Positions 261-57,885 of a stretch of DNA of 57,990 nt are shown here, piece after piece. Numbering within the stretch: the first letter of the stretch is position 1; each line of letters starts with the position of its first letter. The stretch is from Octopus sinensis (taxonomy: Eukaryota), in the NCBI RefSeq assembly GCF_006345805.1, contig NW_021834301.1, positions 1 to 57,990 of the forward strand, given 5' to 3'. The position numbers and the translations under genes were made by a program. The notes below the pieces were generated by a model that saw only the letters and a program-made list of their open reading frames with translations, was not told the origin of the DNA and did not search any database.

Positions 261-554
261 AATACACACACACATACACACACACATAAACACATGCACA
301 CACATATATACTTACATACATATAGATATATATTTATATATATATACATATATATATATAGAATAGCTAACGCGAAAATCAATTGGTTCGTTTCAGTCTC
401 TTACCTATTATCATTATTATTATTAACTTCTTATAATCATCAATAATAATGACCTTTTTGACTAGGAATACTCTAAATGTAGATATTTGTCACTACCTGT
501 CATAAATAGCCTTTTTATCTACAATATGCATTTTCGTTGAGTTTTCTATTTTAC

Positions 555-632
<78 letters not shown>

Positions 633-648
633 ATATGTATGTATGTAT

Positions 649-911
649 ATCGTGATGTACATTTGCCACCTGAATGTGGCAGACCCATAGGGGACGATGA
701 TACTGTTGTTTGTGACGCAGATGACGGATTACTTACCCAGAAACCCGGGTCCGTGTGTCTCACGTAAAGCTAGAGACGGGAACGATGATTTCCCTTCGCA
801 AATACTAATCGGACACAGACAGTGTGTCGTTGGCCAGCTGGAGGAGATGTCCTCTGGGACTAAAAACAACACTAGCATCGTCCCCTATCGGTGGCAAATG
901 TACTTCACGAT
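649..911. mobile_element. MITE-like element with ~45-bp imperfect terminal inverted repeats
   Basis: Left atcgtgatgtacatttgccacc[insert]ataggggacgatgatactgttgttt; right aaacaacactagcatcgtcccctatcggtggcaaatgtacttcacgat is its reverse complement. Confidence 0.7.
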
Positions 912-991
912 TCCGCGCTGCTACTGTTTACATCTCTCTCTCCCCCACTCTCTCCTCTCTCTCTCTCTATATATATATATACATATACATA

Positions 992-1040
<49 letters not shown>

Positions 1041-1048
1041 TATTTATA

Positions 1049-1080
<32 letters not shown>

Positions 1081-1158
1081 CATATATATATACATTATAT
1101 ACATATATATACATATATATATACATATATATACACACACACACATATATATATAATG

Positions 1159-1215
<57 letters not shown>

Positions 1216-1399
1216 TTAGGGTGTATAACTACAAACTTACAGGGAAAAATTCAATTTAGTATTAAATCAAATTTCACAATATAAATATATGATATATATA
1301 TATATATACTAGGGAAGAACCACTATTATGTAATTCAAACAATGATAGACATCAACGAAATCATAAATAAAAAATAAAATATATTATAAAACGTATAAC

Positions 1400-1640
1400 T
1401 AGATCACAAAATATATTCTACTGACGATTCGAAAATACTTATGTAAGTAAAACTACATAATCTATTAACGGTGAAACAATTGTGTGGAGTTAATCTATTT
1501 TTTCGTTATTTCTCATTTGTCCTGCTCGCTTACATTCTTGGCGTGTTGAATTAATTCTTGAGAACAATTCTTTAGTGGCGGATTCCCTTTGCGGATCTAT
1601 ATCTAGCGTTAGAGTGACCACATGGTGGACTCTCTCTTAT
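1400..1640 (+). mobile_element. Diverged Penelope-like terminal repeat with degenerate hammerhead motif
   Basis: ttcta-ctgacga...gtgaaacaattgt-gtggag, followed by sequence resembling 3270-3409 (tttgtcctgctcg...ctagcgttagagtgaccacatggtggactct). Confidence 0.5.
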
Positions 1641-1656
1641 TATTTATATATGTGGT

Positions 1657-1703
<47 letters not shown>

Positions 1704-1715
1704 ATTAATATGTGT

Positions 1716-2160
1716 GAGAGAATTAGATACTAATTTAATAGCATATCTATTCAACACCAAGTGCCCAGTGCCTCAAGAAACCTGGATTATTATAATATTT
1801 TATAGTATATTATAATATTTATAAAAAAATAAATATAAGAGAATGGTCACTATGTGGCTCATTCTAGCACTAGAAAATCCAAAAGGTTTCAACCACAAAA
1901 ATACATGTTTCCTATGAAAGTCAGAACGATTGTTAGCTCACACGAACAGGGCAAATAAAAAATAACAAAAATACAGATTATTTTGGGACAATTGTTTCGC
2001 TGTTAATGAATTAAATGTAATTTTACTTACAAAAAACCCACTTGTAGCTCCTCGGCCAAAACTATCTGGATGAAATCCACTCAATCACACGCCAGATTTT
2101 ACCATAACGATAAATACACGTGTGGTTCAATTGATTACATCCGACGTTATAATTCAAATG
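1716..2160 (-). mobile_element. Penelope-like terminal repeat, copy 1 (hammerhead motif at 1981-2061, minus strand)
   Basis: Directly repeated at 2792-3089 and inverted at 3091-3409; carries ttttgg-ccgagga-gcta...agc-gaaac-aatt-gtc-ccaaaa on the minus strand. Confidence 0.7.
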
Positions 2161-2220
2161 CCCTTACCAACAGCGCGCCAAACTTTCACGGAAACAAATA
2201 CTACATTTAGAAATAAATGT

Positions 2221-2315
2221 AGCATATGGCCTAGTGGTTAGGGCAGCGGACTCGCGGTCGTAGGATCGCGGTTTCGATTCCCAGACCGGGCGTTGTGAGT
2301 GTTTATTGAGCGAAA
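2221..2315 (+). mobile_element. SINE family C head (tRNA-Arg-like)
   Basis: tggcctagtggttagggcagcggactcgcggtcgtaggatcgcggtttcgattccc: A box, TCG anticodon-like loop, B box. Confidence 0.75.
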
Positions 2316-2351
2316 TTTAATTCCTGTTTTACTTGGAGTGGCCCTCATATA

Positions 2352-2766
2352 GGCGCAGGAGTGGCTGTGTGGTAAGTAGCTTGTTTACCAACCACATGGT
2401 TCCGGGTTCAGTCCCACTGCGTGGCATCTTGGGCAAGTGTCTTCTACTATAGCCTCGGGCCGACCAAAGCCTTGTGAGTGGATTCGGTAGACGGAAACTG
2501 AAAGAAGCCTGTCGTATATATGCATATATATATATATATATATATGCGTGTGTGTGTTTGTGTCTGTATTTGTCCCCCTAGCATTGCTTGACAACCGATG
2601 CTGGTGTGTTTATGTCCCCGTTACTTAGCAGTTCGGCAAAAGAGACCGATAGAATAAGTACTGGGCTTACAAAAGAATAAGTCCCAGGGTCGATTTGCTC
2701 GACTAAAGGCGGTGCTCCAGCATGGCCGCGGTCAAATGACTGAAACAAGTAAAAAGAGTAAAGAGT
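2352..2766 (+). mobile_element. SINE family A, full length (tRNA-derived head, internal TA/TG microsatellite)
   Basis: gtggctgtgtggtaag (A box), gggttcagtccc (B box), ttgggcaagtgtcttctactatagcctcgggccgacc, tail tgactgaaacaagtaaaaagagtaaagag; many copies in the window. Confidence 0.9.
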
Positions 2767-2791
2767 ATAATTATAATTAATTAATAAGGGT

Positions 2792-3409
2792 GAGAGAATT
2801 AGATACTAATTTAATAGCATATCTATTCAACACCAAGTGGCCCAGTGCCTCGAGAAGCCTGGATTATTATAATATTTTATAGTATATTATAATATTTTAT
2901 ACAAATATAAATATAAGAGAATGGTCACTATGTGGCTCATTCTAGCACTAGAAAATCCAAAAGGTTTCAACCACAAAAATACATGTTTCCTATGAAAGTC
3001 AGTACGATTGTTAGCTCACACGAACAGGGCAAATAAAAAATAACAAAAATACAGATTATTTTGGGACAATTGTTTCGCTATTAATGAATAATTTGAATTA
3101 TAACGTCGGATGTAATCAATTGAACCACACGTATATTTATCGTTATGGTAAAATCTGGCGTGTGATTGAGTGGATTTCATCCAGATAGTTTTGGCCGAGG
3201 AGCTACAAGTGGGTTTTTTGTAAGTAAAATTACATTTAATTCATTAATAGCGAAACAATTGTCCCAAAATAATCTGTATTTTTGTTATTTTTTATTTGCC
3301 CTGTTCGTGTGAGCTAACAATCGTACTGACTTTCATAGGAAACATGTATTTTTGTGGTTGAACCTTTTGGATTTTCTAGTGCTAGAATGAGCCACATAGT
3401 GACCATTCT
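2792..3409. mobile_element. Penelope-like inverted terminal-repeat pair (fold-back) with hammerhead motif at 3189-3269
   Basis: Arm 2918-3089 is the near-perfect reverse complement of 3239-3409. Confidence 0.75.
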
Positions 3410-3464
3410 TTATATTTTTATTATATTATATATATATCTATATATATATATATATATATATAGA

Positions 3465-3503
<39 letters not shown>

Positions 3504-3561
3504 GATATATATATATATTATATATATATATTATATATAATATATATATATAATATGTCTC

Positions 3562-5153
3562 ATGAAAAGAAGCTTGGGTAATAGAAATATAAAGTCAAAC
3601 CCTAAAGCTTTCTTTAAGTTTGCCAAAGAGACAGCCACAGTGCACCAGAGAATAGGACCTCTCTTCCAAAAAGATGGCTCTCTCACAGGAAATCCCACGA
3701 GGATAAGTGAAATACTGAACGAACAGTTCCAAAATGTGTTCACTACACCTCTAGGACACAGGCAAGTAAACAACCCAGACGAATTCTTTGCCACCTTACC
3801 TGCGACTAAAGAGGCAAAAATTGAGTACATCAACATTGAAGATGATGATATCACACTGGCCATAGATGAGATTGACACAAACTCAGCTGCTGGACCTGAT
3901 GGATTTCCAGCGATCCTTCTCAAATCGTGCAAACGAGCCCTTGAAAAACCGCTACAGCTTCTTTTTCAGAGCTTTCTTGCAAGTGGTAAGGTCCCAGTCA
4001 AATTGAAAGAGGGGGTAATATGCCCTATCCATAAGGGAGGAAGCAGAGCAGATGCTAAAAATTATAGGCCTATCTCTCTGACCTCACACATCAGCAAAGT
4101 CATGGAACGAATAGTCCGCAAGAAACTAATCATGTTCCTTGAAGAAAATGACTTGCTGACTGACACCCAGCATGGATTTCGACCAGGTAGAAGCTGCCTT
4201 ACACAGCTCCTGCAACACTATGACTGGGTGTTAAAACAGCTACTAAATGGCTCAAAATATGGATGTGATATATCTCGACTTTGCAAAAGCCATTGATAAA
4301 GTCGACCATGGTATGATCTGTCACAAACTGCGTGATCTCGGCATAGGCGGAAAACTTGGAGAGTGGCTGCACAACTTCCTAAAGAATAGAAGACAGGCAG
4401 TTGTGACCAATGGAGCCACCTCCAAGGAAACACAAATAACAAGCGGTGTTCCACAGGGCACTGTCTTGGGGCCACTGCTGTTCATAGTGGCCCTTTCAGA
4501 CATGCCCTCAGTTGCTAAGATGGCCACCCTTGCTAGCTATGCAGATGACACAAACGTCTCCCACATAATACAAAACCCTGGAAATATTGCACACCTGCAA
4601 CAGGAGTTGGATACAATATACAGGTGGGCTGAGGACAACAACATGCAGTTTAATGCAGGGAAGTTCCAGGCCCTGCGCTGCCGGCACACAAAGGTAAACG
4701 ACATGCAGACTGGATACACTGGTCCGAGAAGAATTGCAATCTCTGAGTCAAAATCAGTGCGTGACTTGGGCATTGACATGAGCAATGATGCATCTTTCCA
4801 AGTGCATATTACTAATCTGGTGAACAAAATGCAGACGGCTAGCTTGATGGATTCTCCGAACTTTCAGAACAAGAGAGGAGACACTGATGGTCAATTGGAA
4901 AACTTTCGTCCTCAGCTGCTTGGACTACTGCTCCCAACTATGGTCACCACACAATATAAAACTAACAGCAGAACTCGAAGCAATTCAAAGAAGCTACACA
5001 AAGAAGATCGTCTCAATGCAACATATCAGCTACTGGGAAAGACTGAATGTATTAAACCTCTTCTCCCTAGGGCGAAGGCGGGAGAGATATGCGGTGATAT
5101 ACATCTGGAAAATCCTGGAGGGTCTTGTCCCAAACTTTGGCATTCAAAGTTAC
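3562..5153 (+). pseudogene. Non-LTR retrotransposon (CR1/Jockey group) ORF2 reverse-transcriptase fragment, frameshifted
   Basis: AGPDG, NYRPISLTS, QHGFRPGRSC, YLDFAKA, GVPQGTVLGPLLF, YADD, VRDLG and LDYCSQLWSP spread over three frames; truncated at both ends. Confidence 0.95.
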
Positions 5154-5157
5154 CCCA

Positions 5158-5749
5158 TAAGTTTCCATAGAACAAAGTTGACAACCATCCCTACTATTTC
5201 TATAAGGTTGAGCCCTTCTAACTATATCCCGTTTAAGGTTGAATTCTATATTATTTGTTTTTAGTTCCCAAATTTTGCTAGATAGTGTTGTGCAACCTGC
5301 CTTATGTTTGAGCCTAAAAGAGGAAAAATGATTGTTAAGACGTCTTTTAAGATCCACCGAACATCCGAAATAAAGAAAGCTATTGCTAGAAGTTATTATC
5401 GTGCATTTATAAATTATGTTTCGGACCGAACAACGACCAGATACCGGGCATTTTGATCTAATCCTACAATTACAACTGGGGGGATAGTGTCCGGTACTGG
5501 AATTATTTAAGGACAGTTCACTTACATTACTATTATTTAAATTATTATTAGTATTAGTATTACTTTCATTATTAGTAATCACGTTGTTATGCAAATTAGG
5601 GTTACTAGTTATTAATCCATCCTCACTATCATCACCTACCATACTTTTATCTATACTACCTATATTATTGGTATTGTTATTATCACTATTTACATCAATG
5701 TTGTTATTATTATTATTATTATTATTATTAATAATTATTATTATTATTA

Positions 5750-5791
<42 letters not shown>

Positions 5792-6267
5792 CTATCATTA
5801 TTATTTTATTATTTTTTTAGTGAGTGAGAGAGCAGTGCATGCCATCAAAGTGACACTGGGGTAAAATATACGAAGCCCAATTACCCTCATGACTACCCGT
5901 CTGATAAGGGTACACCAGGCACATGCATCACAACCATATGTGCGCGACATGGTGATCTCATATCAGATAAACGCACATGACCTTGCAGGTGGGGCCCAGT
6001 TAGAATTTTCTTCAGGTTGAGTAGCCCATCCCGCTCAAACGGTCCCTGAATAAGGGTTGTTTAAGGATGTTGAAAGAACCACCCATGTTTCCAGAGGTGA
6101 ATTATTCAAACCCCAAAGAATCCCTCTCAACACATGGCTATGATGCTCCCCCACTACTTCTGCTCGTGATCAGAGATGCACATATCGTCAGCCACCAAGG
6201 GACATGCTCACATTATTAATATTATTTTTATTATTACCATTATTATTATTTTTATTATTATTATTAA

Positions 6268-6333
<66 letters not shown>

Positions 6334-8145
6334 TGTTAATGCTATTATTACAATTATTATTACTATCATTGTTGTTACTATTCATTCTACTCCTAGCTAA
6401 CTTAATGTTTTTACTATTAAGTCTAGCTATTATGGTTGCCATGTTTGGGAGAGTGGAATATGAAATTCTTACTGATCTCCTAGAAATTATTTTATGATAT
6501 TTATGGGAGGCTGGGAAATATTTTTCCAGTATAGATTTAAATCTACTGTACACATTCGTCGAGATCGCCCTATTAAAGGGGATATTTAGCCAAATGATAT
6601 TTTCTCTTTTATATTTTTTGTTTAAGTAAGAGTGGGAAGGATTAATGTTATCAGTATTCATACGAGAATTATTATTCCTTTTAGTACTATTTTTATGCCT
6701 ATCGGGTTTATCTAGGTTAGCATTTTCATATTTATTTATGATCTGCTCACTATTTTTTATTCCTATAATTAGGTTTATACTCTAGGTTCTTTTTCTCTAT
6801 TAATTTATGTTTATGTAGGGTATGAGAGTTTATATTACTTACGTCATTTACATTCACTATATTATTTAGGAGATTTGAGCTATCCATATCAAGGAAGGTG
6901 ATTTCCTGGTCTTATCCAGCCTTGGATAATACGATATTGTAATGGTTAGAGTGAGAGTTAAATATTTCACTATTTGATGATAATCTTGAAATTCTTTGAG
7001 AGATATTTTTAACTAATGATTTTAGTATATTCGGTGGGTGATTAGATGACTTACTTACATATCTAGTGACTTCGCCCTCTTTTCTAAATGGGTAATGTAA
7101 CTTTGAATTTAGGTCTAAGGTAACGTCTAGGAAATTAACTATCTTAGTGTTAGGTTCATAAGTAATTCCTGGGTTAAAAACTTTGCTAATTTTCTTTTTT
7201 ATCCTCTCAATACTTGATTTACTGTCGCTAGGTACAACAAACAAAGCATCATCCCTATATAGACCACCTTGTAATTCTGGAATATCTCTGTTTATGCATT
7301 TTAATAAGTATGCTCCCACCAGATTCGTTATCTCCGCCGAGTCACTAGAGCCCATGGGTATATCAAAATTATTAGGGGTATCCGCCCTAGTCCATAATTT
7401 CCCTTCAAATTCGATGATAGTTTTTCTAGCTAATAGGATGATGTCAATTTCCTCCCTAGATATGAGAGAGCGGTTCTTAGCAAAAATAAGCGATTTATTA
7501 AGTAGAATGGGGGATATACTGGAATAGTAATTGTTAATATCAAATTGGATAAACGAAATTCTATTAGTATTATCTAGAGATTTAAACCAATCTATCACCT
7601 CATCTGTATTAATCCATAGACTCAAGGGGGGATTAGGAATTATACGGGGTAGAATCTTGTCCAAAATAGATTTGCTAAGTCGGCCAATGTCTGACTTAGT
7701 TGGACATATGAGTCTTTCCGAGGGGTTTTCGGAGAATTTTTTCTTATGGTCCTTAAGATTAATCCTGGGTTCACATGGTTTTAGAGGCTCCGTTCTATCG
7801 GTCAGATCGTAATTCACCATAACTTTTTTGATTTCTAAATTAATCTCTCTCAGATTTTTCTTAGTTGTTACTTTATACCTTAAGTTTAGTTCCTTTCTAA
7901 TGAGTTTGCTGTAAGTTGAATGATCCATTCTGTAAAGGTTTCCAGTTTTGTCGGCTGGGACTAGGATGCCCTGTTTATCTTGAATAGATTTAATGAAATC
8001 CTTTAGATGTCTAAGGTGTGGATTGTGTCTTAGTGGATGTTCCTTGAATTTTATATTTGCGATAAGGTCCAGTAGATCCTTTTCAAATCTTTCAAGCAAT
8101 GGATTCGGAGGTGGGCTCTTCCTACTTCTAAAAATCTTTATAAGG
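5158..8145 (-). mobile_element. Penelope-like element (RT, linker, GIY-YIG endonuclease), inactive and interrupted
   Basis: RT 6912-8145 (PADKTGN, FDINNYY, PMGS, GLYRDD, FLDVTLDL, SNHPP); IIWLNIPFN...RISYSTLPN block; endonuclease CNC..CP..G.C..IIYKC..YFG..LKRR..NH..CQLC; nonsense at 6912-6914. Confidence 0.93.
5821..6210 (-). mobile_element. (AAT)n-associated non-coding retroposon, 5'-truncated copy inside the PLE linker
   Basis: Reverse complement of ~26449-26840; flanked on both sides by (ATT)n. Confidence 0.8.
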
Positions 8146-8335
8146 CTCCACGAGGCTCCAGCAGGAGTGTGGTGGTGATCCCTGCTGTACTCTTTCGCCA
8201 CAACTTTCTCTCACTCTTTCTTCTGTTTGCCCTGCTCGTTTAGCCAGCGGGGTGGCGTTATTTGAAGGCTAAAACAATGCAAAGCAACATCTGATAGCCT
8301 GGTCGATCACGGTGATCACGATGATATATATATAT
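8145..8335 (+). mobile_element. SINE family C, 3' part
   Basis: gctccacgaggctcc...gatccctgctgtactcttt...ggtcgatcacggtgatcacg-(TA)n; matches the 16623 and 49149 copies. Confidence 0.8.
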
Positions 8336-14649: not shown

Positions 14650-15820
14650 TGCGAGATGGTATCAAAAAGTTGCAGGACCAGTAAATTTTAATTCAAAAAT
14701 AGCTTATTTAACTACGTTTTAACACTATCTCCTTCGAAAGACTCACTTTGCGTTGCAACACACCAGTTCCGGCGCTTCCAATTAGGGATTCCGACCTGGA
14801 AGTTATTTTTCCGTAAGTGAGTCGAGAACCTTCCGCAATTCGTTCTTTATCTCGAAAGCGGTGTGAAAACGGCGATCTTTGAGCTGCCTTTTCATCTTGG
14901 AGAGGAGGTAGAAGTCCGCAGGGGCTAAATAGATGGATGCGGAAGCGTTACCACATATCCGGTCGTTTTCGCCGAATGTCCTCCCTTAAACGCTTCAAAA
15001 CGTCGCAGCAGAAGTCTCAATCGACAGTCTAGTCCTGAGGGACGAATTCTCGATGCACAATACCACGGATATCAAAAGAAAAAAAAAACATTGAGCATAT
15101 CCTTACGGTCGTGGAGATGAAGGGCTCTTCCACTGTGACGACTGCTGCTTCGTGTCGGGGTCGTACTCGTAAACCCAACTCCCGTCACCGGTGATGATCC
15201 TAGACATGAAAGATGGGTCATTAGTGGGGACGCTGACGGAGATCTTGACAGACTTCGATGTTCTTTCTGCCCAGTGGTCAGCAGATGGAAGACAATCTTG
15301 ACAGAAACACGCGACATGTTCAATTCAGACGTTAGAATTGCCAGCACGGACCCATAACGACAGGCCAACAACATCAGCAATGTCATTGATTGTCCTCCGA
15401 CGATCCTCGTGCCCAAGCAGATGAATTTCTCCACATTTCCCGTAGCAGAACTTCCAGATCGCGCATCATCTTCCAGGGATGTTCCTCCGCTTTTGAAACA
15501 CCCGTGCCACTTGAAACATTGCGTACGACCCATTGCCTCAGTGCCGTAAGCTTGTCGAAGCATCCTCAACGTCTCTATAGCAGACCTCCCAAGTTTAACG
15601 CAAAATTTCACTCTGGTTCTTTGTTCCAACTTGCTGTCCAGCATACACGGGATCAGAAAAAAACACAAATTTCACACCTTACAGAGTAAACACAGCGGTA
15701 TCTCTCGGCACAATGTCTCATGAAATGTCACTGCTAGCTGTCACTGCACACGCAACCGTGTGCTGCCATCTGTTGGTGCACCACAGAACCAGCCCGGGAA
15801 GTTTTTGATGCCACCTTGCA
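14650..15820 (-). mobile_element. Mariner-family DNA transposon, both TIRs present, degenerate transposase
   Basis: TIRs tgcgagatggtatcaaaaagtt / aagtttttgatgccaccttgca-TA; EQRTRVKFCVKLG..ETLRMLRQAYG..FKSG.TSLEDD.RSG; IITGDGSWVYEYDPDTKQQSSQWK; internal deletion. Confidence 0.9.
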
Positions 15821-18788: not shown

Positions 18789-18827
18789 GGCGCAGAAAGT
18801 GGCTGTGTGGTAAGTAGCCAGCTTACC
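18789..18827 (+). mobile_element. SINE family A, 5' stub (remainder at 21116-21515)
   Basis: ggcgcagaaagtggctgtgtggtaagtagccagcttacc. Confidence 0.8.
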
Positions 18828-21115
18828 AGTCTCGTCGTTAGATGTGCTTTTTGGCGGTGAGTCAAACGTCTTGTTGAACTTTGGATTAATTTTTTTTCTT
18901 GGAATTGTTGAATGTTTATCGTTGAACATTTTCGAGCTGTTGAACATTGTTGAACTTTGAAAATTTGAAAACTCTTGTGCTTTTTCCCGGTGACGGGAGA
19001 AAGAAATTGTTCGTGTAAAGCCATTTTTTCAGTTGTGAATGGTTGAAATATTGAACTTGTTAAAGCCGTTTTAGGCTTTATTGTCGTGCCCCTCCCCTAG
19101 CGGGGGTGAGATTTGAACTGTTGTCCTCGTTGTGAGGGAAAAAAATATTATAAGCTTCCCGTTTTTGGGGATAATCAATTTATTATTGTGTGGAAAATTT
19201 AATTTTAGACATTGTAGGCTCTATTGCGGCACCCGCCCCTAGCGGGGGTGAGATTTGAACTGTTGTCATCGTTGTGAGGGAAAAAAAGTTAAAAATTATG
19301 GGTTTCCCGTTTTCTGGGATTAAATTGTGTATAAATTTATTTCGAACGAATATGTCGGTCGAAATAATTTCAGAGAAAAATTCATTGGAACAGCCAGTTA
19401 AGAAATTTTCAGCAGTTACCGCGGTGGCTACTGAAAACGTCGAACGACCAAAGGAAAAGCTCTCCGAGGTCTTTGAAAAAATGAAAGAAGAACGGGGTTA
19501 TATAAAAATATTACCCTCAACTAGTGTTGAAAAATTGAAAAGAAGGAAAGTTGTTTTCAAAACATATTGTCCTTCAACAAAGAAATTTAAGCACTTTGAG
19601 CAGTACAAAATTGAAAAATTTCTGGCTCCCATATGGGAAGACATAAAGTATATAGCGAGGGGCCGTACTTATGGCACAGCAGAGGCCAGATTTGAAACAG
19701 TAAAAGCCCAAGAGCACTCAGTGAGTCCCTTGAAAACGAAGGAGTCGGTACTTCTGCCAACCTACATGGGGAAACGAACTGCTCGAGTAAGAGTGACAGA
19801 AGTGCCGCCTGAAGCTGATGTAAGGGAGGTGATGGCGGCCCTGTTGCATAACAGGAGGGACAAAATCGCCTTCCTTCAGATCACACGCTCTGCCCCACAA
19901 AACTGGCTCGAGCAGAGCATTTCTGCCATTATTTAGGGTACTCAGGAAGATATCAAAATGCTTCCAGAGAGGGTGAGGATATCACACTCAGAATACAAGT
20001 AGAGGGAAAAAAGCCAACGTGTTATGAATGTGGCAAAAAAGGCTACATCCGTAAAGACTGTGAACAATGGAAAAGAAAAGTGACGCAGGCAGCAGGCCCC
20101 TCAATTGCAAAAAAGACCTTAAACCCACATACGCATTAGCCTCCACAGAAACAAAAATTCCCACTTCTCCAACTGTGGTGCCTGCCCCCAAACACGACAC
20201 CCAAACACCCCAGACCATGCTTACACCAGTCCCGATAACGTCAAGAACACCACCACCCCCTATAAAGTGGCACCAGAACATGTAACTCCTCCGGACGACA
20301 CCATGGAAGTGGTTGAGGGGGTGTTCACAGCAGTTCGGAAACGAACACATACACCTTCCCCATCCACATCCCCCACAAAAGAAAACGAAAAAGGAAGCAC
20401 CACACCACAAAAAAGGGAAAAAACGGAGGATGACGAAGAGAAAACCCGGGTAAAATATGACACCAGAGACAAATACATTGAGAACCTTGTAAAAGATCAC
20501 CAGGCTGTTTGAAGAGCACAAGGACTTAAGAAAAAGATGTGCCTGGATAGGGGAAGGGCTTTACGGGCAACTGGAGGACAGGCATCCAAAGACCATCAGG
20601 AGTATCCCGGAACTTCCAGGATATTTGAAGGAGGAGGAGGAAAGGGCTGCCTCATGTATTGTGAGGTCAGCCCCAACATCACCAGTGAAGGATAAGTAGA
20701 ACCCTTGTATTTTTTTCTTGTTTTGGCTGCACTTAATCTTGGGTGTTTGAATGTGCGTGGTCTGAGCTCGAAGTGGAAGCAAGTTTGTTTCCTCGACGAC
20801 CTCAGATCACACGATATGCATGTGATGGTTGCTACAGAGACCAACCTGGACAGTCTACAAGCCTTCTCGCCCCTCCTGTAGGACTATGAGAAAAACATGT
20901 CTCCTAGCCAGGCCAGAGGGAGAGGGGGTGTAGCAGTACTGGTCCGGAAAGGATTGGCTCTGCGGACAAGTACAGTCTATGTAGACCCTGGAGGTGGGCT
21001 GGTCGTCCTTGATGTGACATACAGTAGTAAGGCCTTCAGGTTGATCGGAATCTATGATTGTCTGTCCTTGTTCGTCCCCTCTTTGTAATGCCTTCATGGC
21101 AAATTTTATGAAATA
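18828..21115 (+). mobile_element. L1/Tx1-like LINE, internally deleted (5'UTR, ORF1, APE N-terminus, 3' tail)
   Basis: ORF1 from ~19351 with knuckle CYECGKKGYIRKDC (~20009-20050) and a Pro/Thr-rich tail; APE LGCLNVRGL..VATET..GGVAVLVRK..FRLIGIY (~20730-21055); flanking 16-bp duplication. Confidence 0.85.
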
Positions 21116-21256
21116 AAGTAGCTTGCTTACCAGCCACATGGTCATGGGTTCAGTCCCACTGCGTGGCACCTTGGGCAAGTGTCTTCTACTATAGTCTCGG
21201 GCCGACCAAAGACTTGTGAGTGGATTTGGTAGACGGAAACTGGAAGAAGCCCGTCG

Positions 21257-21316
<60 letters not shown>

Positions 21317-21515
21317 TGTTTGTCCCCCCCAACATCGCTTGACAACCGATGGTGGTGTATTTACGTCCCCGTAACTTAGCGGTTCGCCAAAAGAGCCAGA
21401 TAGAATAAGAACTAGGTTTATAAAGAATAAGTCCTGGGATCGATTTGTTCGACTAAAGGCGGTGCTCCAGCATGGCCACAGTCAAATGACTGAAACAAGT
21501 AAAAGAATAAAAGAA
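21116..21515 (+). mobile_element. SINE family A, remainder after LINE insertion
   Basis: aagtagcttgcttaccagccacatgg...gggttcagtccc...tgactgaaacaagtaaaagaataaaag. Confidence 0.9.
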
Positions 21516-30567: not shown

Positions 30568-30651
30568 ACAAGGGAAGTTTGTGAATGTATGTGAACATTG
30601 ACAAGTGTATTAGTTTGATTTACCATCCATATTTATATACAAGATACCACA

Positions 30652-31067
30652 TAGGCGTAGGAGTTGCTGTGTGGTAAGTAGTTTGCTTACCAGCCACATG
30701 GTTCCAGGTTCAGTCCCACTGCGTAGCACCTTAGGCAAGTGTCTTCTTCTATAGCCTCGGGCCGACCAAAGCCTTGTGAGTGGATTTGGTAGACGGAAAC
30801 TGTAAGAAGACCGTCGTATATATGTATATATATATGTGTGTGTGTGTGTGTGTCTTTGTGTGTGTCTTTGTATGTCCCCCCAACATCGCTTGACAACCGA
30901 TGATGGTGTGTTTGTGTCCCCGTAACTTAGCGGTTCGGCAAAAGGGACTGATAGAATAAATACTAGGCTTACAAAGAATAAGTCTTGGGGTCGATTTGCT
31001 CGACTAAAGGCGGTGCTCCAGCACGGGCACAGTCACATCACTGAAACAAGTAAAAGAGTAAAAGAGT
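30652..31067 (+). mobile_element. SINE family A, full length
   Basis: Same head, core and tail as 2352-2766. Confidence 0.9.
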
Positions 31068-39325: not shown

Positions 39326-40683
39326 TTGAAATGCTTATCCAAACATGGTGGACCTATGAGCGTGTTTGCCACAGCCTGCATAAGAAAATATATTTAACAA
39401 AAAAAACAGTAAATAAACAAAAGAGGAAAAATTACACAAAAAAGCAACAATGACAATGGTAAGGACGACAATAGCAAATACAAGACGAATAAAGGATCGT
39501 CAAAGCACAAACATACTGGACGGGTAACTGCTTAAACTATTTCTTCAAACAAAACTGAAAGGTTTCATAGAAAAAGCTAAAGAGCATGTTTATAGAAACA
39601 TTGTAGAAATGTCCGGTTTGAACCGGTTTGCACTAGATTACACTTGCCAGGCAACAATCACGGGGGAGGGTTATTTGGGGGTTAAGGGTTAGTGCAGGAA
39701 GGGCTGAGTGGAAGTGTTCTGTATAGTTTTGCGATAATGTGTGTGTCCGTGTGTCCGTGTCCAGCTGTCTTTTTTCTCCTTTCGTCTTCTCCATCTTCCT
39801 CCTCCTTCTTCCACTTCCTCATTTTCCTCCGCCTGCAACTCCAACTACTATTCCGCCTCCTTTTTCATCTTCTTTTCTTTCTTTTCTTTCTTTTTTCTTT
39901 ATCTTCTTTTTCTTCTTCATCATCATCACCACCTGCATCACGAACACCACCACCACCACCACCACAATCATCAACATCTTCTTTCGTCCACCCTCCTTTT
40001 CTTCTCCGCCCTCCTCTCCTTTCTGTCCTCCTCCTCCCCCTACTCCTCTTGTCCCACCTTCACCTTTAATAAAACTGATTATGAAAAGTTCAACAATGTG
40101 GCTGACGAGGGTTGCGGCGTAGGGTGGTGGCAAAAATTCGCTATCATCCCCCACCCAGGAATATACTCTGCATACAAAATATACGCGATATATTGAGTGA
40201 CATTAACTTCCCCACCACGACCAACACTACAAAAAACACAAAAAAAATCTCTTGCAGAAGCTCTACGCTTATCTTTGCAACAAATGTGAACGTTCGGATG
40301 AGGGGGAGGGACTGATATTTTGCTCACTGTGAGATGTTTCGTCGAGAAATTTTTCCTAATCTGCTGCCCTTCAGGTTGAAGGGTGAGGCTGGGACCATTT
40401 CTCCCACATTTACTTCTCTTTCGTCCTGTAACATCTTTTTTGAGGTGGGTCGGGGTCATATTAGCATATTTTTAGTTCAGGTGTGCCGCCGAAATTTGAA
40501 AATAACATGTGAAAAAAGGGATGCGGAGCACTGACCTATAGCAGAAAGGATTGTTAGTTACCGTTGGAGTTGTTATTGTTGTAACTGTCTCTTATTGTTG
40601 TTTTTTTTTTTTTTGTTATTATTGTAGTTGTTTTTGTTGCTTGTTTTCTAGTAAACCCCTCGAGATATTATCGTGTTTATAAA

Positions 40684-41065
40684 GGCCGCGAGTTGGCAGA
40701 AACGTTAGCACGCCGGGCGAAATACTTAGCGGTATTTCGTCTGCCGTTACGTTCTGAGTTCAAATTCTGTCGAGGTCGACTTTGCCTTTCATCCTTTCGG
40801 TATCGATTAAATAAGTACCAGTTACGCACTTGGGTCGATATAATCCGTTTGTCTCCCCTTGTTTGTTCCCTCTGTGTGTAGCCCCTTGTGGGGCAGTAAA
40901 GAAATAGGTATTACGTTCTGAGTTCAAATTCCGCCGAGGTCGATTTTGCCTTTCATTCTTTCAGAGTCGATAAATTAAGTACCAGTTACGCAATGGGGTC
41001 GATGTAATCGACTGGCCCTCCTCTCTAAAAAAATTCGGGCTTTGTGCCTAGAGTAGAAAAGATAA
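40684..41065 (+). mobile_element. SINE family B composite (tail 1 + tail 2)
   Basis: Head tggcagaaacgttagc, B box gagttcaaattc, gcctttcatcctttcgg..gat..aagtaccag; junction aaagaaata|ggtatt at 40906. Confidence 0.9.
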
Positions 41066-42365: not shown

Positions 42366-42486
42366 GTAGTAGTAACAGGAAAGAGAATTTCGATTATCCC
42401 CACGTGGTAGTATGCGTATTTACCTTTTTTAATTTCTTATATGTATATATATATATACATGTGTGTGTGTGTGTGTGTGTGTGTGA

Positions 42487-42695
42487 GGCGGCGAACTGGC
42501 AGAAACGTTAGCCCGCCGGGCTAATTGCTTATTTCGTCTGTCTTTATGTTCTGAGTTCAAATTCCGCCGAGGTCGACATTGCCTTTCATCCTTTCGCAGT
42601 CAATAAATTAAGTACCAGCTGCGTACTGCAGTCGATTTAATCGACTGGCCCCACTCCCGCACACTTTCGGGTCTTGTACCTAGAGTAAAAAAAGA
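42487..42695 (+). mobile_element. SINE family B monomer (tail 2)
   Basis: ggcggcgaactggcagaaacgttagc...cgggtcttgtacctagagtaaa. Confidence 0.85.
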
Positions 42696-43044: not shown

Positions 43045-44475
43045 ATGAAACTAGAATGTTTCATGTCTGTTGTGGTGCAAGCCATATGCCAGAAATATGT
43101 CCCGGAGCACAAGGCCAAAACAAATAGGAACAAGATTCCAAGAGACAGGAAGATCCTCATGAGACGACGGACGAAGGTTGCAAATCGACTCAACCAACAT
43201 CCCAAAAGTAGCGAAAAGTCCCGCCTAAAAACAACACTGATGGAGATCGAAAAAAGGCTGCAACAATCCTATGTGAAGGAGAAAGCAGACAAAGAAGCCT
43301 GGGTTATAAAAAAACATTAAGTCAAACCCAAACGCCTTCTTTCATTATGCGAAAGAAACAGCCTCAGTACACTGCAAGATAGGACCTCTCCTCTAAAAGG
43401 ATGGCTCCCTCACAGACAGTCCAACTAAGATCAGTGAGATGCTGAATGACCAGTTCAAAAGTGTCTTTACCACCCCGTTGGAAACACAGACAAGTGAACG
43501 AACCAGTGGACTTCTTTGCCGCCTCACCTATAACCAGCGAGGCAGTTACAATGGAATACATTGACGTTAGCGAAGAAGATATACCTCTAGCCATAGATGA
43601 AGTGGACACAAACTCAACTGCTGGTCCTGATGGTTTCCCAGCAATCCTCCTCAAACGTGTAAGCATGCCCTGGCAAAATCCTCCAGATTCTCTCCAGAGC
43701 TTTCTCTTACAATGGCAAACTGCCAAGCAAGCTGAAGCAGGGATAATATGCCCAACACATAAAGGGGGAAGTAGAGGCAGATGCCAAAAACTACTTAGCC
43801 TATCTCTCTGACTTCACACATCAGCAAAGTCATGGAAAGGATAGTCAGAAAGAAACTAATCGCATTCCTTGAGGAAAATAACTTGCTGAGTAATACCCAG
43901 CATGGTTTTCAACCAGGTAGGAGATGCCTGACCCAGCACTTACAGCATTATGACTGGGTGTTGAGGCAGTTACTCAACAAATCAAATGGGGACGTAATAT
44001 ACCTTGATTTTGCAAAAGCTTTTGACAAGGTGGATCATGGTATGATATGCCATAAACTGCATAGCTGGAAAACTTGGAGAGTGGTTACATGACTTTCTGA
44101 AAGATAGGAGTCAGGCAGTAGTGGCTAATGAAGCCACCTCTATGAACACACAAATAGTGAGCGGTGTTCAACAGGGCACTGTCTTAGGACCACTGCTTTT
44201 TATAGCGGCCCTCTCAGATATGCCTTCAAATGCCCGGATATCCACCCTTGCAAGCTATGCAGATGATACGAAAGTCTCGCAGAAAATACAGAACCCCAGC
44301 GATGTTGCACACCTGCAGCAGGAGTTGAACTCAATCTACAGAGGGGTGAGGATAATAATATGCAGTTTAATGCTGAAAAATTCCAAGCCCTGCACTAGCA
44401 GCATCCAAAACTGAATATGAAACTTACAGGGTACTCTGGCCCACAGGGAATTTCAATCCCAGAGCCTAAGTCAGT
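43045..44475 (+). pseudogene. Second CR1/Jockey-group LINE ORF2 fragment, diverged relative of 3562-5153
   Basis: AGPDGFPAILLK, QHGFQPGR, YLDFAKAFDKVDH, QGTVLGPLLF, YADD; multiple frameshifts. Confidence 0.93.
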
Positions 44476-47234: not shown

Positions 47235-47420
47235 AAATTTCGCTGCCCGGGCCAGTCTGACTGCTTCTCTCCATCCCTCCCTATCTTCCATTAGTGTTTT
47301 CAGGTCTTCAACTTGGCATCCAGCATCTTCTGCAAGCCGTTGTATATATGTATTCCGTGGTCTTCCAGCCGCTGTGGTACCATGATTTGGTGTCCACAGC
47401 AACATACTACTCACGAGTTC
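47235..47420 (-). pseudogene. RTE-clade LINE C-terminal fragment
   Basis: LLWTPNHG..GRPRNTYI..EDL..MEDREGWRE. Confidence 0.8.
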
Positions 47421-47497
47421 TTCTAAAAATTTTGCTATTTTTTTCATTACTTTATTATTCGTTTCTTTAAGTAATGCAAGGAATTTGCGTTCAAAGC

Positions 47498-47893
47498 GGC
47501 GGGTGAACTGGCCGAATCGTTAGCACGCCGGGCGAAATGCTTACCTGTATTTCGTTTGCCGTTACGTTCTGAGTTCAAATTCCGCCGAGGTCGACTTTGC
47601 CTTTCATCCTTTGGGAGGTCGATGAATTAAGTACCAGTTAAGCACTGGGGTCGATGTAATCGACTTAATCCGTTTGTCTGTTCTTGTTTGTCCCCTCTGT
47701 GTTTAGTCCCTTGTGGGTAGTAAAGAAATAGGTATTTCGTCTGTCGCTACGTTGTGAGTTCAAATTCCGCCGAGATCGACTTTGCCTTTCATCCTTTCGG
47801 GGTCGATAAGTTAAGTAGCAGTTGTGTACTGGATACGATCTAATCGACTGACCCCCTGCCCCAAAATTTCGGGCCTTGTGCCTAGAGTAGAAA
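47498..47893 (+). mobile_element. SINE family B composite (tail 1 + tail 2)
   Basis: Junction aaagaaata|ggtatttcg at 47730. Confidence 0.9.
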
Positions 47894-48627
47894 TGCAAAT
47901 ATTATAAAAGTAGTTAAATGCAAAAAGAGCGTCACTTGTGCCGCACCCTGTGTAAATATATTTACATCGCTGGTGGGGAGGGAGGGGGCGGTGCGCGTGT
48001 ATTTGCGTGGTGTGTGCGTGTGCGTGTGTACGAATTCCCGCCAAGACAGCGGCAGAAACGTCAAGAACGGTGACTCGTCAAACAACAACAGCAACAATAA
48101 AATCTACAACTATCTCTTCTCTCTCTCACGCTATCTATTGTCTACTACAACTGCCTGTAACCAGCTACCACCACCACCGCCGCCGCCGCACGCCCCGCCG
48201 CCGCCGCCGCCACCACCACCACCGCCGCCACCACCACCACCACCACCACCACCACCACCACCAGCACTGCCGCCGCCACCACCACTACCATAATTACAAC
48301 CATCGCCTCCGCCGCTGCAAAAACCACCATTATCATCATTATTACCATCATCATCACCATCATCATCACCGTCACCGTCATCCTCAATCATCACCATCGT
48401 CATCATCATCATCGTCGACATAAGCCGTTGAATCGATAAAGACGGCGTCATTGTGAAACAGTCGTACGTGCATCTTACCCGTTCGTTCATGGAGGCTCTG
48501 GTAATTGCGTTGTTAAGCGGGTTGTTAAGAGGATTTCAGCGGGACGTTCTTCGGGGTGGTGACTGCGTCGATATGGGTATTTGGATGCATACATTTTTGA
48601 ACGTATAGAGGGATGGATAGACGGATG

Positions 48628-49984: not shown

Positions 49985-50445
49985 AATATTATTTTCTACT
50001 CTAGGCACAAGGCCCGAAATTTTAGGGGAGGGGGCCAGTCGATTAGATCGGCTCCAGTACAGAACTGGTACTTAATTTCTCGAGCCCGAAAGGATGAACG
50101 GTAATGTCGACCTCGGCGGAATTTGAACTCAGAACGTAACGGCAGACGAAATACCGCTAAGCATTTCGCCCGGCGTGCTAACGTTTCTGCCAGCTCGCCG
50201 CCTTAACCTAAATAATATTTATTTCTTTATTGCGTACCGAGGGCTAAACATGGAGGGGACAAACAAGAAAAAAGGGATTAAGTCGATCACATCGACCCCA
50301 ATGCGTAACTGGTACTTATTTAATCGACTCCGAGAGGATGAAAAGCGAAGTCGACGTCGGTGGAATTTGAACTCAGAACGTAGCAGTAGACGAAATACTG
50401 CTACGTATTTCTCCCGGCGTGCTAACGATTCTGCCAGATCGCCGC
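49985..50445 (-). mobile_element. Two head-to-tail SINE family B copies (tail 1 copy upstream of tail 2 copy)
   Basis: Reverse-complement heads at ~50445 and ~50203. Confidence 0.85.
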
Positions 50446-51700: not shown

Positions 51701-52074
51701 GTGGGCTTCGTATGCCGTGGCTGATGATACGCAGTCATGCCGAAACTGCGGCATCTACAACATCGTAGGCGATGTTCAAGAGTGGTCACCTTTTGCCAGG
51801 CACGTATTCCTACAGATCGTCTCTTTGTCAGAGCTGCAATCCTGCGTCAAATGAAGACCATAACTAGGCTCCTGGCATCTACAGTGTTGTCAGGTTCTCA
51901 CACCTCACCACAGGTTCAGAGCAAAGGGTTTAAGAAACTTCCCTGTTAGCATTTTATAAAAGTGCGGAAAAACGACGAAACTTGTATCAACATCAACAAA
52001 AGTATAAGTCAGGCAAGTCAATCCCGCAGAACGCTAACTAAGCTCAAAAACTGCGAGAAACATCCAGACCAGAA

Positions 52075-52488
52075 GGCGGCGAGCTGGCAGATGTGTTAGC
52101 ACGCCGGGTGAAATGTGTAGCTGTATTTCGTCTGCCGTTACGTTCTGAGTTCAAATTCCGCCGAGGTCGACTTTACCTTTCATCCTTTCGGGGTCGATTA
52201 AATAAGTACCAGTTACGCACTGGGGTCGATGTAATCGACTTAATCCGTTTATCTGTACTTGTTTGTCCTCTCTGTGTTTAGCCCGTTGTGGGTAGTAAAG
52301 AAATAGGTATTTCGTCTGCTGTTACGTTCTGAGTTCAAATTCCACCGAGGTCGACTTTGCTTTTCATCCTTTCGGGGTCGATAAATTAAGTACCAGTTGT
52401 GCACTGGGGTCGGTCTAATCGACTTAATCCCTTTGTCTGTCCTTGTTTGTCCCCTCTGTATGTTGCCCCTTGTGGGCAACAAAGAAAT
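52075..52488 (+). mobile_element. SINE family B composite (tail 1 + tail 1)
   Basis: Junction aaagaaata|ggtatttcg at 52305. Confidence 0.9.
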
Positions 52489-53207
52489 CAGAGCCATCCA
52501 GACCGTTCAGAAAAGGAACCATATACCAAATTCCAAAAATACCTCAATTCTGAGAGCGATTTGTTCAACGAAAACCTTTCAACGCGGTGCTCCAGCATGA
52601 CCGCAGTCCAGTCACTGTACCATGTGACAGGAGATGAAACAAGGACATTTGTTTTGCCGTTTCGAGCTATTCAGACGACAGCCTCCTATTATAGACGCCA
52701 TCGTCGGCTCTTTTTGTTTTTTGTTTTATTTTTGGCGGGAGACGAGTGAAGCAGTTTTCGGTTAAAGTAACCGAGTTTTATGATTAATGCAAGTTCGATT
52801 ATGGCGTAGCATCGATTATTGCCTAACTGCCAAATCACGTTGGAGACTGATGAATGAATAAATGAACGAACTGTGGAGTTACATTATTATAACATATAGA
52901 GGAGTTGAATGGTGTAACCAGATGTGTGTGTGTGTGTGTGCTTCGGTATGTATCTTGGAGTAGTAGTAGTAGCAGCAGCAGCAGCAAATTATTCACATAT
53001 AGCATGTATATATGTATGTATATATGCATATATATATATATATATATATGCATGCATATATATATATAAATTTATTTTTCTATATATACATTCTTTTATT
53101 CTTTTACATAATTCAGCCCTAACGCTGTGGCCATCATGGAGCACCGCCATTGTATGTATGTGTATGTATGTATATATGTATATATATATATATATCTATA
53201 GATATAT

Positions 53208-57257: not shown

Positions 57258-57885
57258 TGATCTGATCAATAAGTAACCGGGCTATTGCCATAGTAACGAA
57301 ACCAAAGCACGCAGAGTGAAGCCACTGGACACAAATTGACCTCGAATTCTGCTGTGCATGCGCACAAGTTTTATAGTTCTAGCTCACTTCCGCTGTTTAC
57401 AGCAGTGCTGGGAAGGGAGGTGTGTAGCGTGTGGTCATCACATTGGCCATGACAGAGAAAGTTGAGCAGAGAATCTGCATCAAATTTTGCCAAAAGCTTG
57501 ATGATACCTGCTCAGAGACCTACGCAAAGTTTTCAAAATGTTTTCATCGTCCTCGACACAATCAAGGAGATCTTGTGCAACTGAAACCCGGGTGTCTTTT
57601 TGGTCAGCTGAGAACAGTTTTAGCACAAACTTGGTAAGCACGCGTCTCATACCCAAATCGTCAGGGATAATGGAGTGAACTGAACCGTAAATAATCTGCA
57701 CATCTTCTGATAACCCACGGATGGTGATTCGACGATTTCCCCTCACAGCTGCACGCACATCTGCGATGTTTTTCTCATTTCTTCTGGTTGCGGGTCTCCC
57801 AGAACGTTCGTCAATATCGACATTTTTTCGGCCATCTTAGAATCGTCTGAACTACTCGTACTCTTGTGTTGCGGTTCATACACTC
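57258..57885. mobile_element. Mariner element with internally inverted transposase
   Basis: Plus strand MTEKVEQRICIKFCQKL..SETYAK (57449-57528); minus strand DERSGRP..VRGNRRITIR..VHSII..LGMRRV..KFV. Confidence 0.85.

What the first reader, a model, noticed from the sequence alone, without database searches (positions are those of the whole stretch)
21056..21115. LINE 3' tail shared with the Nin/Deu-domain SINE family B (candidate LINE-SINE partnership)
Seen: the insert ends ttgtctgtccttgttcgtcccctct..tgcc-ttcat-ggca..gaaata; SINE B tail 1 at 52433-52488 is ttgtctgtccttgtttgtcccctct..tgccc-cttgt-gggca..gaaat (one mismatch in the first block, similar stem-loop). Known: SINEs borrow 3' tails from partner LINEs, mostly CR1/L2/RTE; L1/Tx1 tail sharing is less commonly reported. 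Inference: this LINE mobilises tail-1 SINE B.
Basis: partly seen in the sequence, partly recalled or inferred. Interest (0 to 1): 0.75.

Follow-up and report, generated by a model that had tools for sequence, protein, structure and literature searches.

The report
SINE tail borrowed from Tx1-like LINEs
A broken jumping gene (LINE) in this likely octopus genome ends in a 60-base tail that is the true end of its family and resembles the tail of a very abundant short repeat (SINE), which likely borrows the copying enzyme of this group of LINEs, though probably from a sister family, because this family nearly always lands at one spot in a different repeat that the SINE almost never uses.

Summary
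The match is real: 24/25 bases plus a similar hairpin and end. 21056-21115 is not a SINE scrap. It is the genuine 3' end of a ~5.5-kb two-ORF L1/Tx1-type LINE: 22 of 39 genomic relatives reach this tail and none shares another ending. The window copy lost 3.24 kb at a 4-base microhomology and keeps an 18-bp target duplication. The tail architecture (pyrimidine/GT block, covarying hairpin, A-rich end) belongs to a radiation of Tx1-like families. SINE B tail 1 has the first block of this family but the hairpin and end of sister families. This family is strictly site-specific: 47 of 49 ends sit at one site in the head of another SINE (A). SINE B tail 1 reaches that site 21 times against 88,011 tail matches. 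A sister-tail ORF1-only element lands at the same SINE B junction that SINE B uses. So a Tx1-derived SINE tail is well supported, 'this LINE mobilises it' is not, and the true partner was not found. The Nin/Deu label is unsupported. The scan noted the same system in other windows of this genome.

The parts
18789..18829 (+). 5' part of the target SINE (SINE A) head, ending in the left copy of the target-site duplication (18812-18829)
   Evidence: matches intact SINE A copies at 2349-2390 and 30650-30693; left and right copies printed
18830..21115 (+). internally deleted copy of a Tx1-like LINE, inserted as one unit
   Evidence: 18-bp duplication 18812-18829 / 21116-21133, 16 of 18 identical; colinear with genomic relatives
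19064..19320 (+). tandemly repeated unit (period about 143 bp) in the LINE 5' UTR
   Evidence: self-match 19069-19172 / 19212-19320, 82%; repeated in relatives
19352..20695 (+). broken ORF1, with a CCHC zinc-knuckle remnant at 20020-20061
   Evidence: translation; open ORF1 of relatives hits PF00098; the window piece 19259-19933 alone has no Pfam hit
20696..21056 (+). first ~120 codons of ORF2 (apurinic-type endonuclease), one in-frame stop
   Evidence: 39 relatives match up to this point and diverge at 21056; their ORF2 hits PF03372, PF00078, PF13966; the window piece 20696-20878 alone has no Pfam hit
21053..21057 (+). internal deletion junction (3.24 kb lost) at a 4-base microhomology
   Evidence: comparison with L052, L037, L050
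21058..21082 (+). tail block 1, shared with SINE B tail 1 (24/25)
21089..21101 (+). predicted tail hairpin (4-bp stem, 5-base loop)
21116..21510 (+). right copy of the duplication (21116-21133) and the rest of the target SINE A
   Evidence: 92% to intact SINE A copies over 21116-21260; the end near 21510 was read by eye
52075..52488 (+). SINE B dimer: head + body + tail 1 (to 52305), then body + tail 1 (52306-52488); flanked by a likely 15-bp duplication (52056-52070 / 52490-52504, 13 of 15)
   Evidence: sequence read by eye; self-match of the 184-bp unit
52433..52488 (+).

Best explanation
21056-21115 is the genuine 3' end of a site-specific Tx1-like LINE, and SINE B tail 1 is likely a tail captured from the same LINE radiation, so SINE B is likely copied by the reverse transcriptase of a Tx1-like LINE that likely recognises the tail hairpin, most likely a sister lineage and not the window's family. 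Shown: tail identity, shared tail architecture across families, the fixed landing site of the window family in SINE A, and different landing habits of SINE B. Inferred: target-primed reverse transcription (from the duplications and domain content), RNA-tail recognition (from hairpin covariation) and the identity of the partner. The best lead is the lineage whose ORF1-only satellites end at the same junction in the SINE B head as SINE B does (L361-type; ORF2-bearing relatives L100, L161, L136, L371). An unsampled or extinct lineage carrying both tail halves is about as possible.
For: Tail on relatives: 21 of 39 co-oriented, 16 of them 3.0-3.3 kb past the junction, plus 1 inverted. The other 17 break off at scattered points with no shared alternative end. 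Two open ORFs in L374, 488 aa with zf-CCHC and 1137 aa with endonuclease-RT-zf-RVT. Many lineages with one tail plan. Stem covariation: mean Watson-Crick stem 3.64 bp in 25 distinct tails against 2.59 +/- 0.16 with swapped 3' arms (0 of 1000) and 2.16 +/- 0.20 shuffled (0 of 300). SINE B copies have 8-20 bp duplications (17 of 44 with a head; 0 of 192 mismatched controls), similar in size to the LINE's. Window family: 47 of 49 at one site. SINE B at that site: 21 against 88,011 tail ends. Hairpin-plus-end score against 30 SINE tails: 11-16 for the window family, 39-51 for sister groups. Sister-tail elements at the SINE B head junction: 41 of the first 100 listed by 7-base flank (hand count, many in tandem arrays); 7 of 13 chosen loci run on into the SINE B head. 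SINE B itself is at that junction in 8 of 143.
Against: No LINE with both halves of the SINE tail was found: 0 in 30, 28 and 30 loci of three targeted pattern searches and 0 in 100 LINE loci. Block 1 is matched best by the window family and its nearest relatives (39-46 against 31 or less). The sister group with the identical hairpin and end (L104 type) does not show the SINE's flank bias (0 of 20). The elements sharing the SINE B junction lack ORF2 (11 of 13 show ORF1 only), and the one ORF2 copy checked there (L371) does not continue into SINE B. RNAalifold found no consensus structure on the sequence alignment, and single-tail folding z-scores are weak (-3.4 to +0.5). The covariation control does not remove relatedness, and its window was chosen after seeing the folds. 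No mobilisation was tested.
Confidence: 0.66

Rival explanations
1. The window's own family mobilises SINE B. The enzyme cuts loosely and the landing site is set by a few bases of flanking sequence carried on the RNA's 3' end, so LINE RNA is steered to SINE A and SINE B RNA elsewhere.
For: Block 1 is identical in the young subfamily. The SINE's flank follows its tail variant: among non-tandem copies one variant starts G-G in 21 of 45 and A-G in 3 of 45, the other G-G in 0 of 22 and A-G in 13 of 22. In 2 of 17 duplications the right copy has the variant's preferred start where the left copy differs (L037, L293). All 21 SINE B ends at the LINE's site fall at one offset, roughly tenfold above a uniform estimate from 96,663 target sites (my arithmetic). 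Ages overlap: older LINE subfamily 88-92% pairwise, SINE tails 90%.
Against: The window family's hairpin and terminus have diverged from the SINE's, whereas sister groups keep them. The small excess at the LINE's site is about what the SINE's own short flank bias predicts (rough estimate), and a site 4 bases upstream has more (32). Tx1 target choice is attributed mainly to the endonuclease (PMC4494074, passages).
Confidence: 0.17
2. The tail was captured once from an ancestral Tx1-like LINE, and SINE B is copied by several families of the radiation in turn, with no single partner.
For: The SINE tail is intermediate between two clades. The tail plan is shared by all lineages. SINE B has several flank classes. 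Multiple partners per SINE superfamily are reported in bivalves (PMC11481361, passages).
Against: The strictly targeted families leave almost no SINE B copies at their sites (window family). SINE B at the other families' targets was not counted.
Confidence: 0.14
3. The resemblance is low-complexity convergence or a SINE scrap, with no LINE-SINE relationship.
For: Block 1 is rich in T, C and G and only 25-30 bases long.
Against: The tail is on 22 of 39 relatives with LINE 3' UTR upstream. The score exceeds all 2000 shuffles. One duplication flanks the whole insert. The last ~29 bases of the SINE are identical to a sister LINE group.
Confidence: 0.03

Closest known systems
Stringent SINE/LINE pairs with L1-clade tails: maize ZmSINE2/ZmSINE3 with LINE1-1_ZM, Chlamydomonas SINEX-3_CR with L1-1_CR (PMC3472496, part 1 of 3 read; PMC3747384, passages and tables read)
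   Same: About 50 bases of shared 3' end, and a hairpin with variable stem and compensatory changes, in an L1-group LINE.
   Different: Animal genome; target-specific Tx1-like LINEs; no poly(A) or poly(T) end seen at the junctions; tail plan shared across a whole radiation; exact partner unresolved.
SINEU with Tx1-Mar in crocodilians (PMC4494074, passages and section 16 read)
   Same: A SINE attributed to Tx1 machinery; Tx1 families aimed at fixed sites inside another repeat; different families serving different SINE subsets.
   Different: There the link rests on shared targets and heads, with poly(A) ends and no LINE match reported for the SINEU-1 3' half. Here the tail is shared but the window family's target is not. 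The target is a SINE head, not a DNA transposon.
Target-specific Tx1 families Tx1L, Keno, Kibi, Koshi (as described in PMC4494074, passages)
   Same: Two ORFs, apurinic-type endonuclease, fixed site in a multicopy sequence, target duplication; sister lineages here sit in microsatellites and at a U1-like end.
   Different: The window family's target is the head of an abundant SINE; clade placement against named Tx1 sequences was not possible.
HAL1-type ORF1-only non-autonomous LINEs (PMC5786205, passage)
   Same: The window copy has 5' end, ORF1 and tail without RT; 1.75-kb ORF1-only sister elements exist.
   Different: The window copy's junction is unique among 40 best hits and its ORF1 is broken, so it is a one-off deletion, not such a family.

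Membership tests
Tx1 clade (L1 group) | ORF2 with apurinic-type endonuclease, RT and C-terminal zinc finger | tested here: met
   PF03372, PF00078, PF13966 on L374, L058, L069
Tx1 clade (L1 group) | ORF1 with CCHC knuckle (feature recalled, not from a call) | tested here: met
   PF00098 on L068 and L374
Tx1 clade (L1 group) | Sequence-specific insertion with target duplication | tested here: met
   47 of 49 ends at one site; 21 of 21; 18-bp duplication in the window
Tx1 clade (L1 group) | RT phylogeny groups with named Tx1 elements | tested here: inconclusive
   No named Tx1 among homologues. A sister ORF2 is closer to human L1 ORF2p (E=5e-69) than to R2 (E=4e-23). This places it in the L1 group only; the tree has no outside reference.
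Stringent SINE/LINE pair (window family with SINE B) | Shared 3' sequence, verified on full-length LINEs | tested here: met
Stringent SINE/LINE pair (window family with SINE B) | Conserved 3' stem-loop with compensatory changes | tested here: inconclusive
   Arm-swap and shuffle controls passed; RNAalifold gave no consensus; weak z-scores
Stringent SINE/LINE pair (window family with SINE B) | This LINE has the closest tail in the genome | tested here: not met
   Scores 45-50 against 61-65 for L104/L115/L116 types
Stringent SINE/LINE pair (window family with SINE B) | Same insertion signature | tested here: not met
   21 against 88,011 versus 47 of 49
Stringent SINE/LINE pair (window family with SINE B) | Trans-mobilisation depends on the tail | not testable with these tools
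   needs a retrotransposition or TPRT assay
Nin/Deu-domain SINEs (SINE B) | Central Nin/Deu domain | tested here: not met
   By eye only: the SINE B body (window 52306-52432) shows no extended likeness to the Lottia, Littorina or Nucella Nin sequences in supplement 4 of PMC4758252, nor to the Vhc sequences. Vertebrate Deu consensus not seen; no alignment run.
Nin/Deu-domain SINEs (SINE B) | tRNA-derived head | tested here: inconclusive
   No Rfam hit on 47400-47900, no ARAGORN gene in the window; the A-box-like look of both SINE heads is recalled, not tested
SINEU/Tx1-Mar type partnership | SINE and LINE share a target | tested here: inconclusive
   Not met for the window family; met for ORF1-only sister-tail elements at one SINE B junction; not shown for an ORF2-bearing copy

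The most novel reading that the evidence does not exclude
This genome holds a radiation of Tx1-like LINEs that read a structured, non-poly(A) RNA tail, an animal L1-group case of stringent recognition. Their landing sites are written partly in the RNA: transcripts run a few bases into the last target and prime at matching DNA. One SINE with a captured tail then aims at different sites by tail variant, and LINE families specialise on the heads of the SINEs that parasitise them.
Probability: 0.3. Interest if true: 0.8.

Novelty: new variant of a known kind. Interest (0 to 1): 0.55.

Why it matters
In a survey of 58 SINE/LINE pairs only three had L1-clade tails, all in plants or algae (PMC3472496, PMC3747384). 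The papers read on mollusc SINEs name CR1, CR1-Zenon, L2 and Nimb partners, not Tx1 (PMC11481361, PMC4824008, passages). A Tx1-type tail on a SINE with tens of thousands of copies in an animal would support the idea that L1-group LINEs began with stringent tail recognition. The set of families with differing tails and targets, some with open ORFs, makes it testable which part (endonuclease, hairpin or RNA extension) picks template and site. For annotation: tail similarity alone names the wrong partner here.

Tried and rejected
SINE scrap: rejected. Window copy as a non-autonomous family: rejected, junction unique among 40 hits. Searches for a LINE bearing the whole SINE tail: all 30 loci were SINE or truncated SINE; 28 of 65 matches examined gave SINEs plus two window-family copies; 30 of 228 gave SINEs only. 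These filters would miss a family whose upstream bases fail them. Search for a LINE inserted at the SINE B tandem junction: 72 matches, 30 loci checked, none shown to be a LINE at that site. L104-type group as partner: hairpin identical but flanks differ. L116 group: block 1 identical but hairpin differs and it has its own fixed flank. RNAalifold: no structure; the pair count on that alignment was not obtained. Rfam and ARAGORN gave nothing for the SINE heads. Homologue searches gave no named Tx1. The partner of tail 2 and CR1/L2/RTE tails were not examined. Literature searches found no report of this pair; Repbase, Dfam and Ohshima and Okada 1994 were not available, and file 1 of two supplements could not be searched.

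Full report
OBSERVATION. Window 21058-21082 matches 52433-52457 at 24 of 25 bases. The two tails align at 44 of 62 columns, with a local score above all 2000 dinucleotide shuffles (54 against 22.0 +/- 4.3). The likeness starts at the block: LINE 3' UTR upstream of it does not align with the SINE body.

THE INSERT. 18830-21115 lies inside the head of another SINE (here SINE A), flanked by an 18-bp duplication (18812-18829 / 21116-21133, 16 of 18). It holds a 5' UTR with a ~143-bp repeat, a broken ORF1 with a zinc-knuckle remnant and the start of an endonuclease domain. A genome search with 20700-21125 had 1174 candidates, of which 40 were scored. All 39 other hits stop at or just before the base equivalent to 21056, so the junction is private to this copy. 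It is a 3.24-kb deletion at a 4-base microhomology.

IS THE TAIL THE LINE'S END? I fetched all 39. 21 carry the tail in line, 16 of them 3.0-3.3 kb past the junction and 5 after their own internal deletions. One more has it on an inverted piece (L043). The other 17 break off at scattered points from 376 to 3590 of 3649 bases, each into different sequence; L057, a more distant copy, has a weak tail match. None shares an alternative ending. Relatives encode zf-CCHC in ORF1 and endonuclease, RT and zf-RVT in ORF2; L374 has both frames open (488 and 1137 aa). A sister ORF2 is nearer human L1 ORF2p than R2. The only named close homologue is from Argonauta hians (63%), so the genome is likely an octopod's. 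'Tx1-like' rests on domain content and target specificity; no named Tx1 was available for a tree.

THE FAMILY IS SITE-SPECIFIC. All 21 tails are followed by the same point in SINE A. An independent pattern search found 49 ends of the older subfamily, 47 at that point within two mismatches. On the 5' side 11 of 15 inspected copies have the SINE A head, one follows another LINE tail and three show neither. A young subfamily is 97-99% identical pairwise, the window's subfamily 88-92%.

THE TAIL BELONGS TO A RADIATION. Searches with PF13966 (150 of 24,040 candidates scored), P0002 and an L116 peptide gave 100 further loci that I examined. A tree of 86 ORF2 segments shows about nine supported lineages (no outgroup, loci under 200 aligned residues left out). 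They share one plan: pyrimidine/GT block, hairpin, A-rich end. Several have their own fixed flanks: two microsatellites, a U1-like end (identity recalled) and others. All 27 aligned tails have a stem of 3 bp or more at the same place, with differing letters. The mean Watson-Crick stem in 25 distinct tails is 3.64 bp, against 2.59 when 3' arms are swapped (0 of 1000 reach it) and 2.16 shuffled (0 of 300). Against this, RNAalifold found no consensus on the sequence alignment, where the hairpins are out of register. Single folds are weak, and the control ignores relatedness.

WHO CARRIES SINE B? Scored against 30 unselected SINE tails, block 1 is best matched by the window family and the related L116 type (39-46; others 31 or less). 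The hairpin and end are best matched by the L104 type (43-51) and L136/L161 type (39-45); the window family scores 11-16. Overall the window copy scores 45 and the best sisters 61-65. No sampled LINE has both halves, and three pattern searches built to find one returned SINEs.

Insertion habits argue against the window family. The SINE tail end occurs 88,011 times exactly; about half are internal to dimers and arrays (68 of 143; the window dimer seems flanked by one 15-bp duplication, by eye). Only 21 sit at the LINE's site (17 continue as SINE A) and 32 sit four bases upstream, with 96,663 intact sites available. That is perhaps tenfold above uniform chance, about what the SINE's short flank bias would give (my rough arithmetic), and three orders of magnitude below the LINE's rate. 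SINE B copies do have 8-20 bp duplications (17 of 44; 0 of 192 controls), and their flank follows the tail variant.

One sister tail shares a junction with SINE B. 41 of the first 100 listed ends (124 in all, many in tandem arrays; hand count) show the 7-base flank of the SINE B head junction. Of 13 loci that I picked mostly for such flanks, 7 run on into the SINE B head, and 11 hold ORF1 without ORF2. SINE B itself sits at that junction in 8 of 143. ORF2-bearing relatives with this hairpin exist (L100, L136, L161, L371), but none was shown at that exact junction. The L104 type, whose last ~29 bases equal the SINE's, lacks the SINE's flank bias (0 of 20).

MECHANISM. Shown: tail identity, shared plan, fixed target, differing SINE habits. 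Inferred from established non-LTR biology: ORF2 nicks the target and copies RNA from its 3' end, leaving the duplications; the conserved hairpin is likely the handle. SINE B likely gained the tail by template switching from an ancestor or relative of these families and is likely copied by a sister lineage (0.66). The variant-linked flanks leave open that RNA read-through helps choose the site, in which case the window enzyme cannot be excluded (0.17).

SINE B'S NAME. Its body does not resemble, by eye, the mollusc Nin or Vhc sequences printed in supplement 4 of PMC4758252. Rfam and ARAGORN do not recognise its head. The Nin/Deu label should be dropped until aligned against SINEBase or Dfam.

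WHAT IS KNOWN. PMC3472496 (part 1 of 3) and PMC3747384 (passages, tables): three of 58 SINE/LINE pairs have L1-clade tails, in maize/sorghum and Chlamydomonas, with a covarying hairpin in the grass case. PMC4494074 (passages, section 16): SINEU is tied to Tx1-Mar by shared targets. PMC11481361, PMC4824008, PMC4758252, PMC5804259, PMC5786205 (passages) describe mollusc SINE domains and partners; Tx1 does not occur in the first two. PMC13282606 (part 1 of 3, passages) lists 13 recently active L1-Tx1 families in Octopus vulgaris without tails or targets in the text seen. Seven searches found no description of this pair; Repbase entries and unseen supplements could hold one. Earlier notes of this scan describe the same system from other windows.

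VERDICT. Observation confirmed, interpretation partly supported: a Tx1-type tail on an abundant animal SINE, but probably not this family's passenger. New variant of a known kind; interest 0.55.

Noticed in passing
window 18789-21133; The LINE family is strictly site-specific for the head of SINE A; L057 sits directly behind another copy's tail at the regenerated site.
   Followed up: yes
L361-L373; G000 C5:14113400-14122213, C2:193350637-193362806: 1.75-kb ORF1-only elements with a sister-lineage tail form head-to-tail arrays that end in the SINE B head.
   Followed up: partly
L120:2180-2270: A LINE tail joined to what looks like the 5' end of U1 snRNA (identity recalled, not tested).
   Followed up: no
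L130-L149, L121-L126, L150-L167, L311-L324: Sister lineages have their own fixed flanks: a trinucleotide repeat, a tetranucleotide repeat and three unidentified sequences.
   Followed up: partly
window 47502-47900, 40682-41060, 49990-50220, 42486-42690: SINE B also has a second tail type; dimers with tail 1 inside and tail 2 at the end are common. Its partner was not sought.
   Followed up: no
143 SINE B ends: One base next to the hairpin predicts the first bases of the flank, and in two duplications the right copy has the preferred start while the left does not.
   Followed up: partly
L031:1060-1290: A SINE B inserted after the LINE, duplicating about 25 bases that span the SINE A / LINE junction.
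   Followed up: no
G000 C26:18220664-18223583 (L248-L250); C3430:1634-2204: Satellites made from SINE B pieces (periods about 87 and 67 bp).
   Followed up: no
L295:757-826: A tRNA-gene-like sequence next to a SINE B array (by eye).
   Followed up: no
window 3541-5264, 43446-44414; 6188-8210; 15072-15671, 57480-57836: Remnants of other elements by translation: RT-like LINE pieces, a Penelope-like RT and mariner-like transposase fragments (family names recalled).
   Followed up: no
window 1875-2159 / 3091-3375: 285-bp inverted repeat, 97% complementary, 931 bases apart, with a SINE A between the arms; MITE-like.
   Followed up: no
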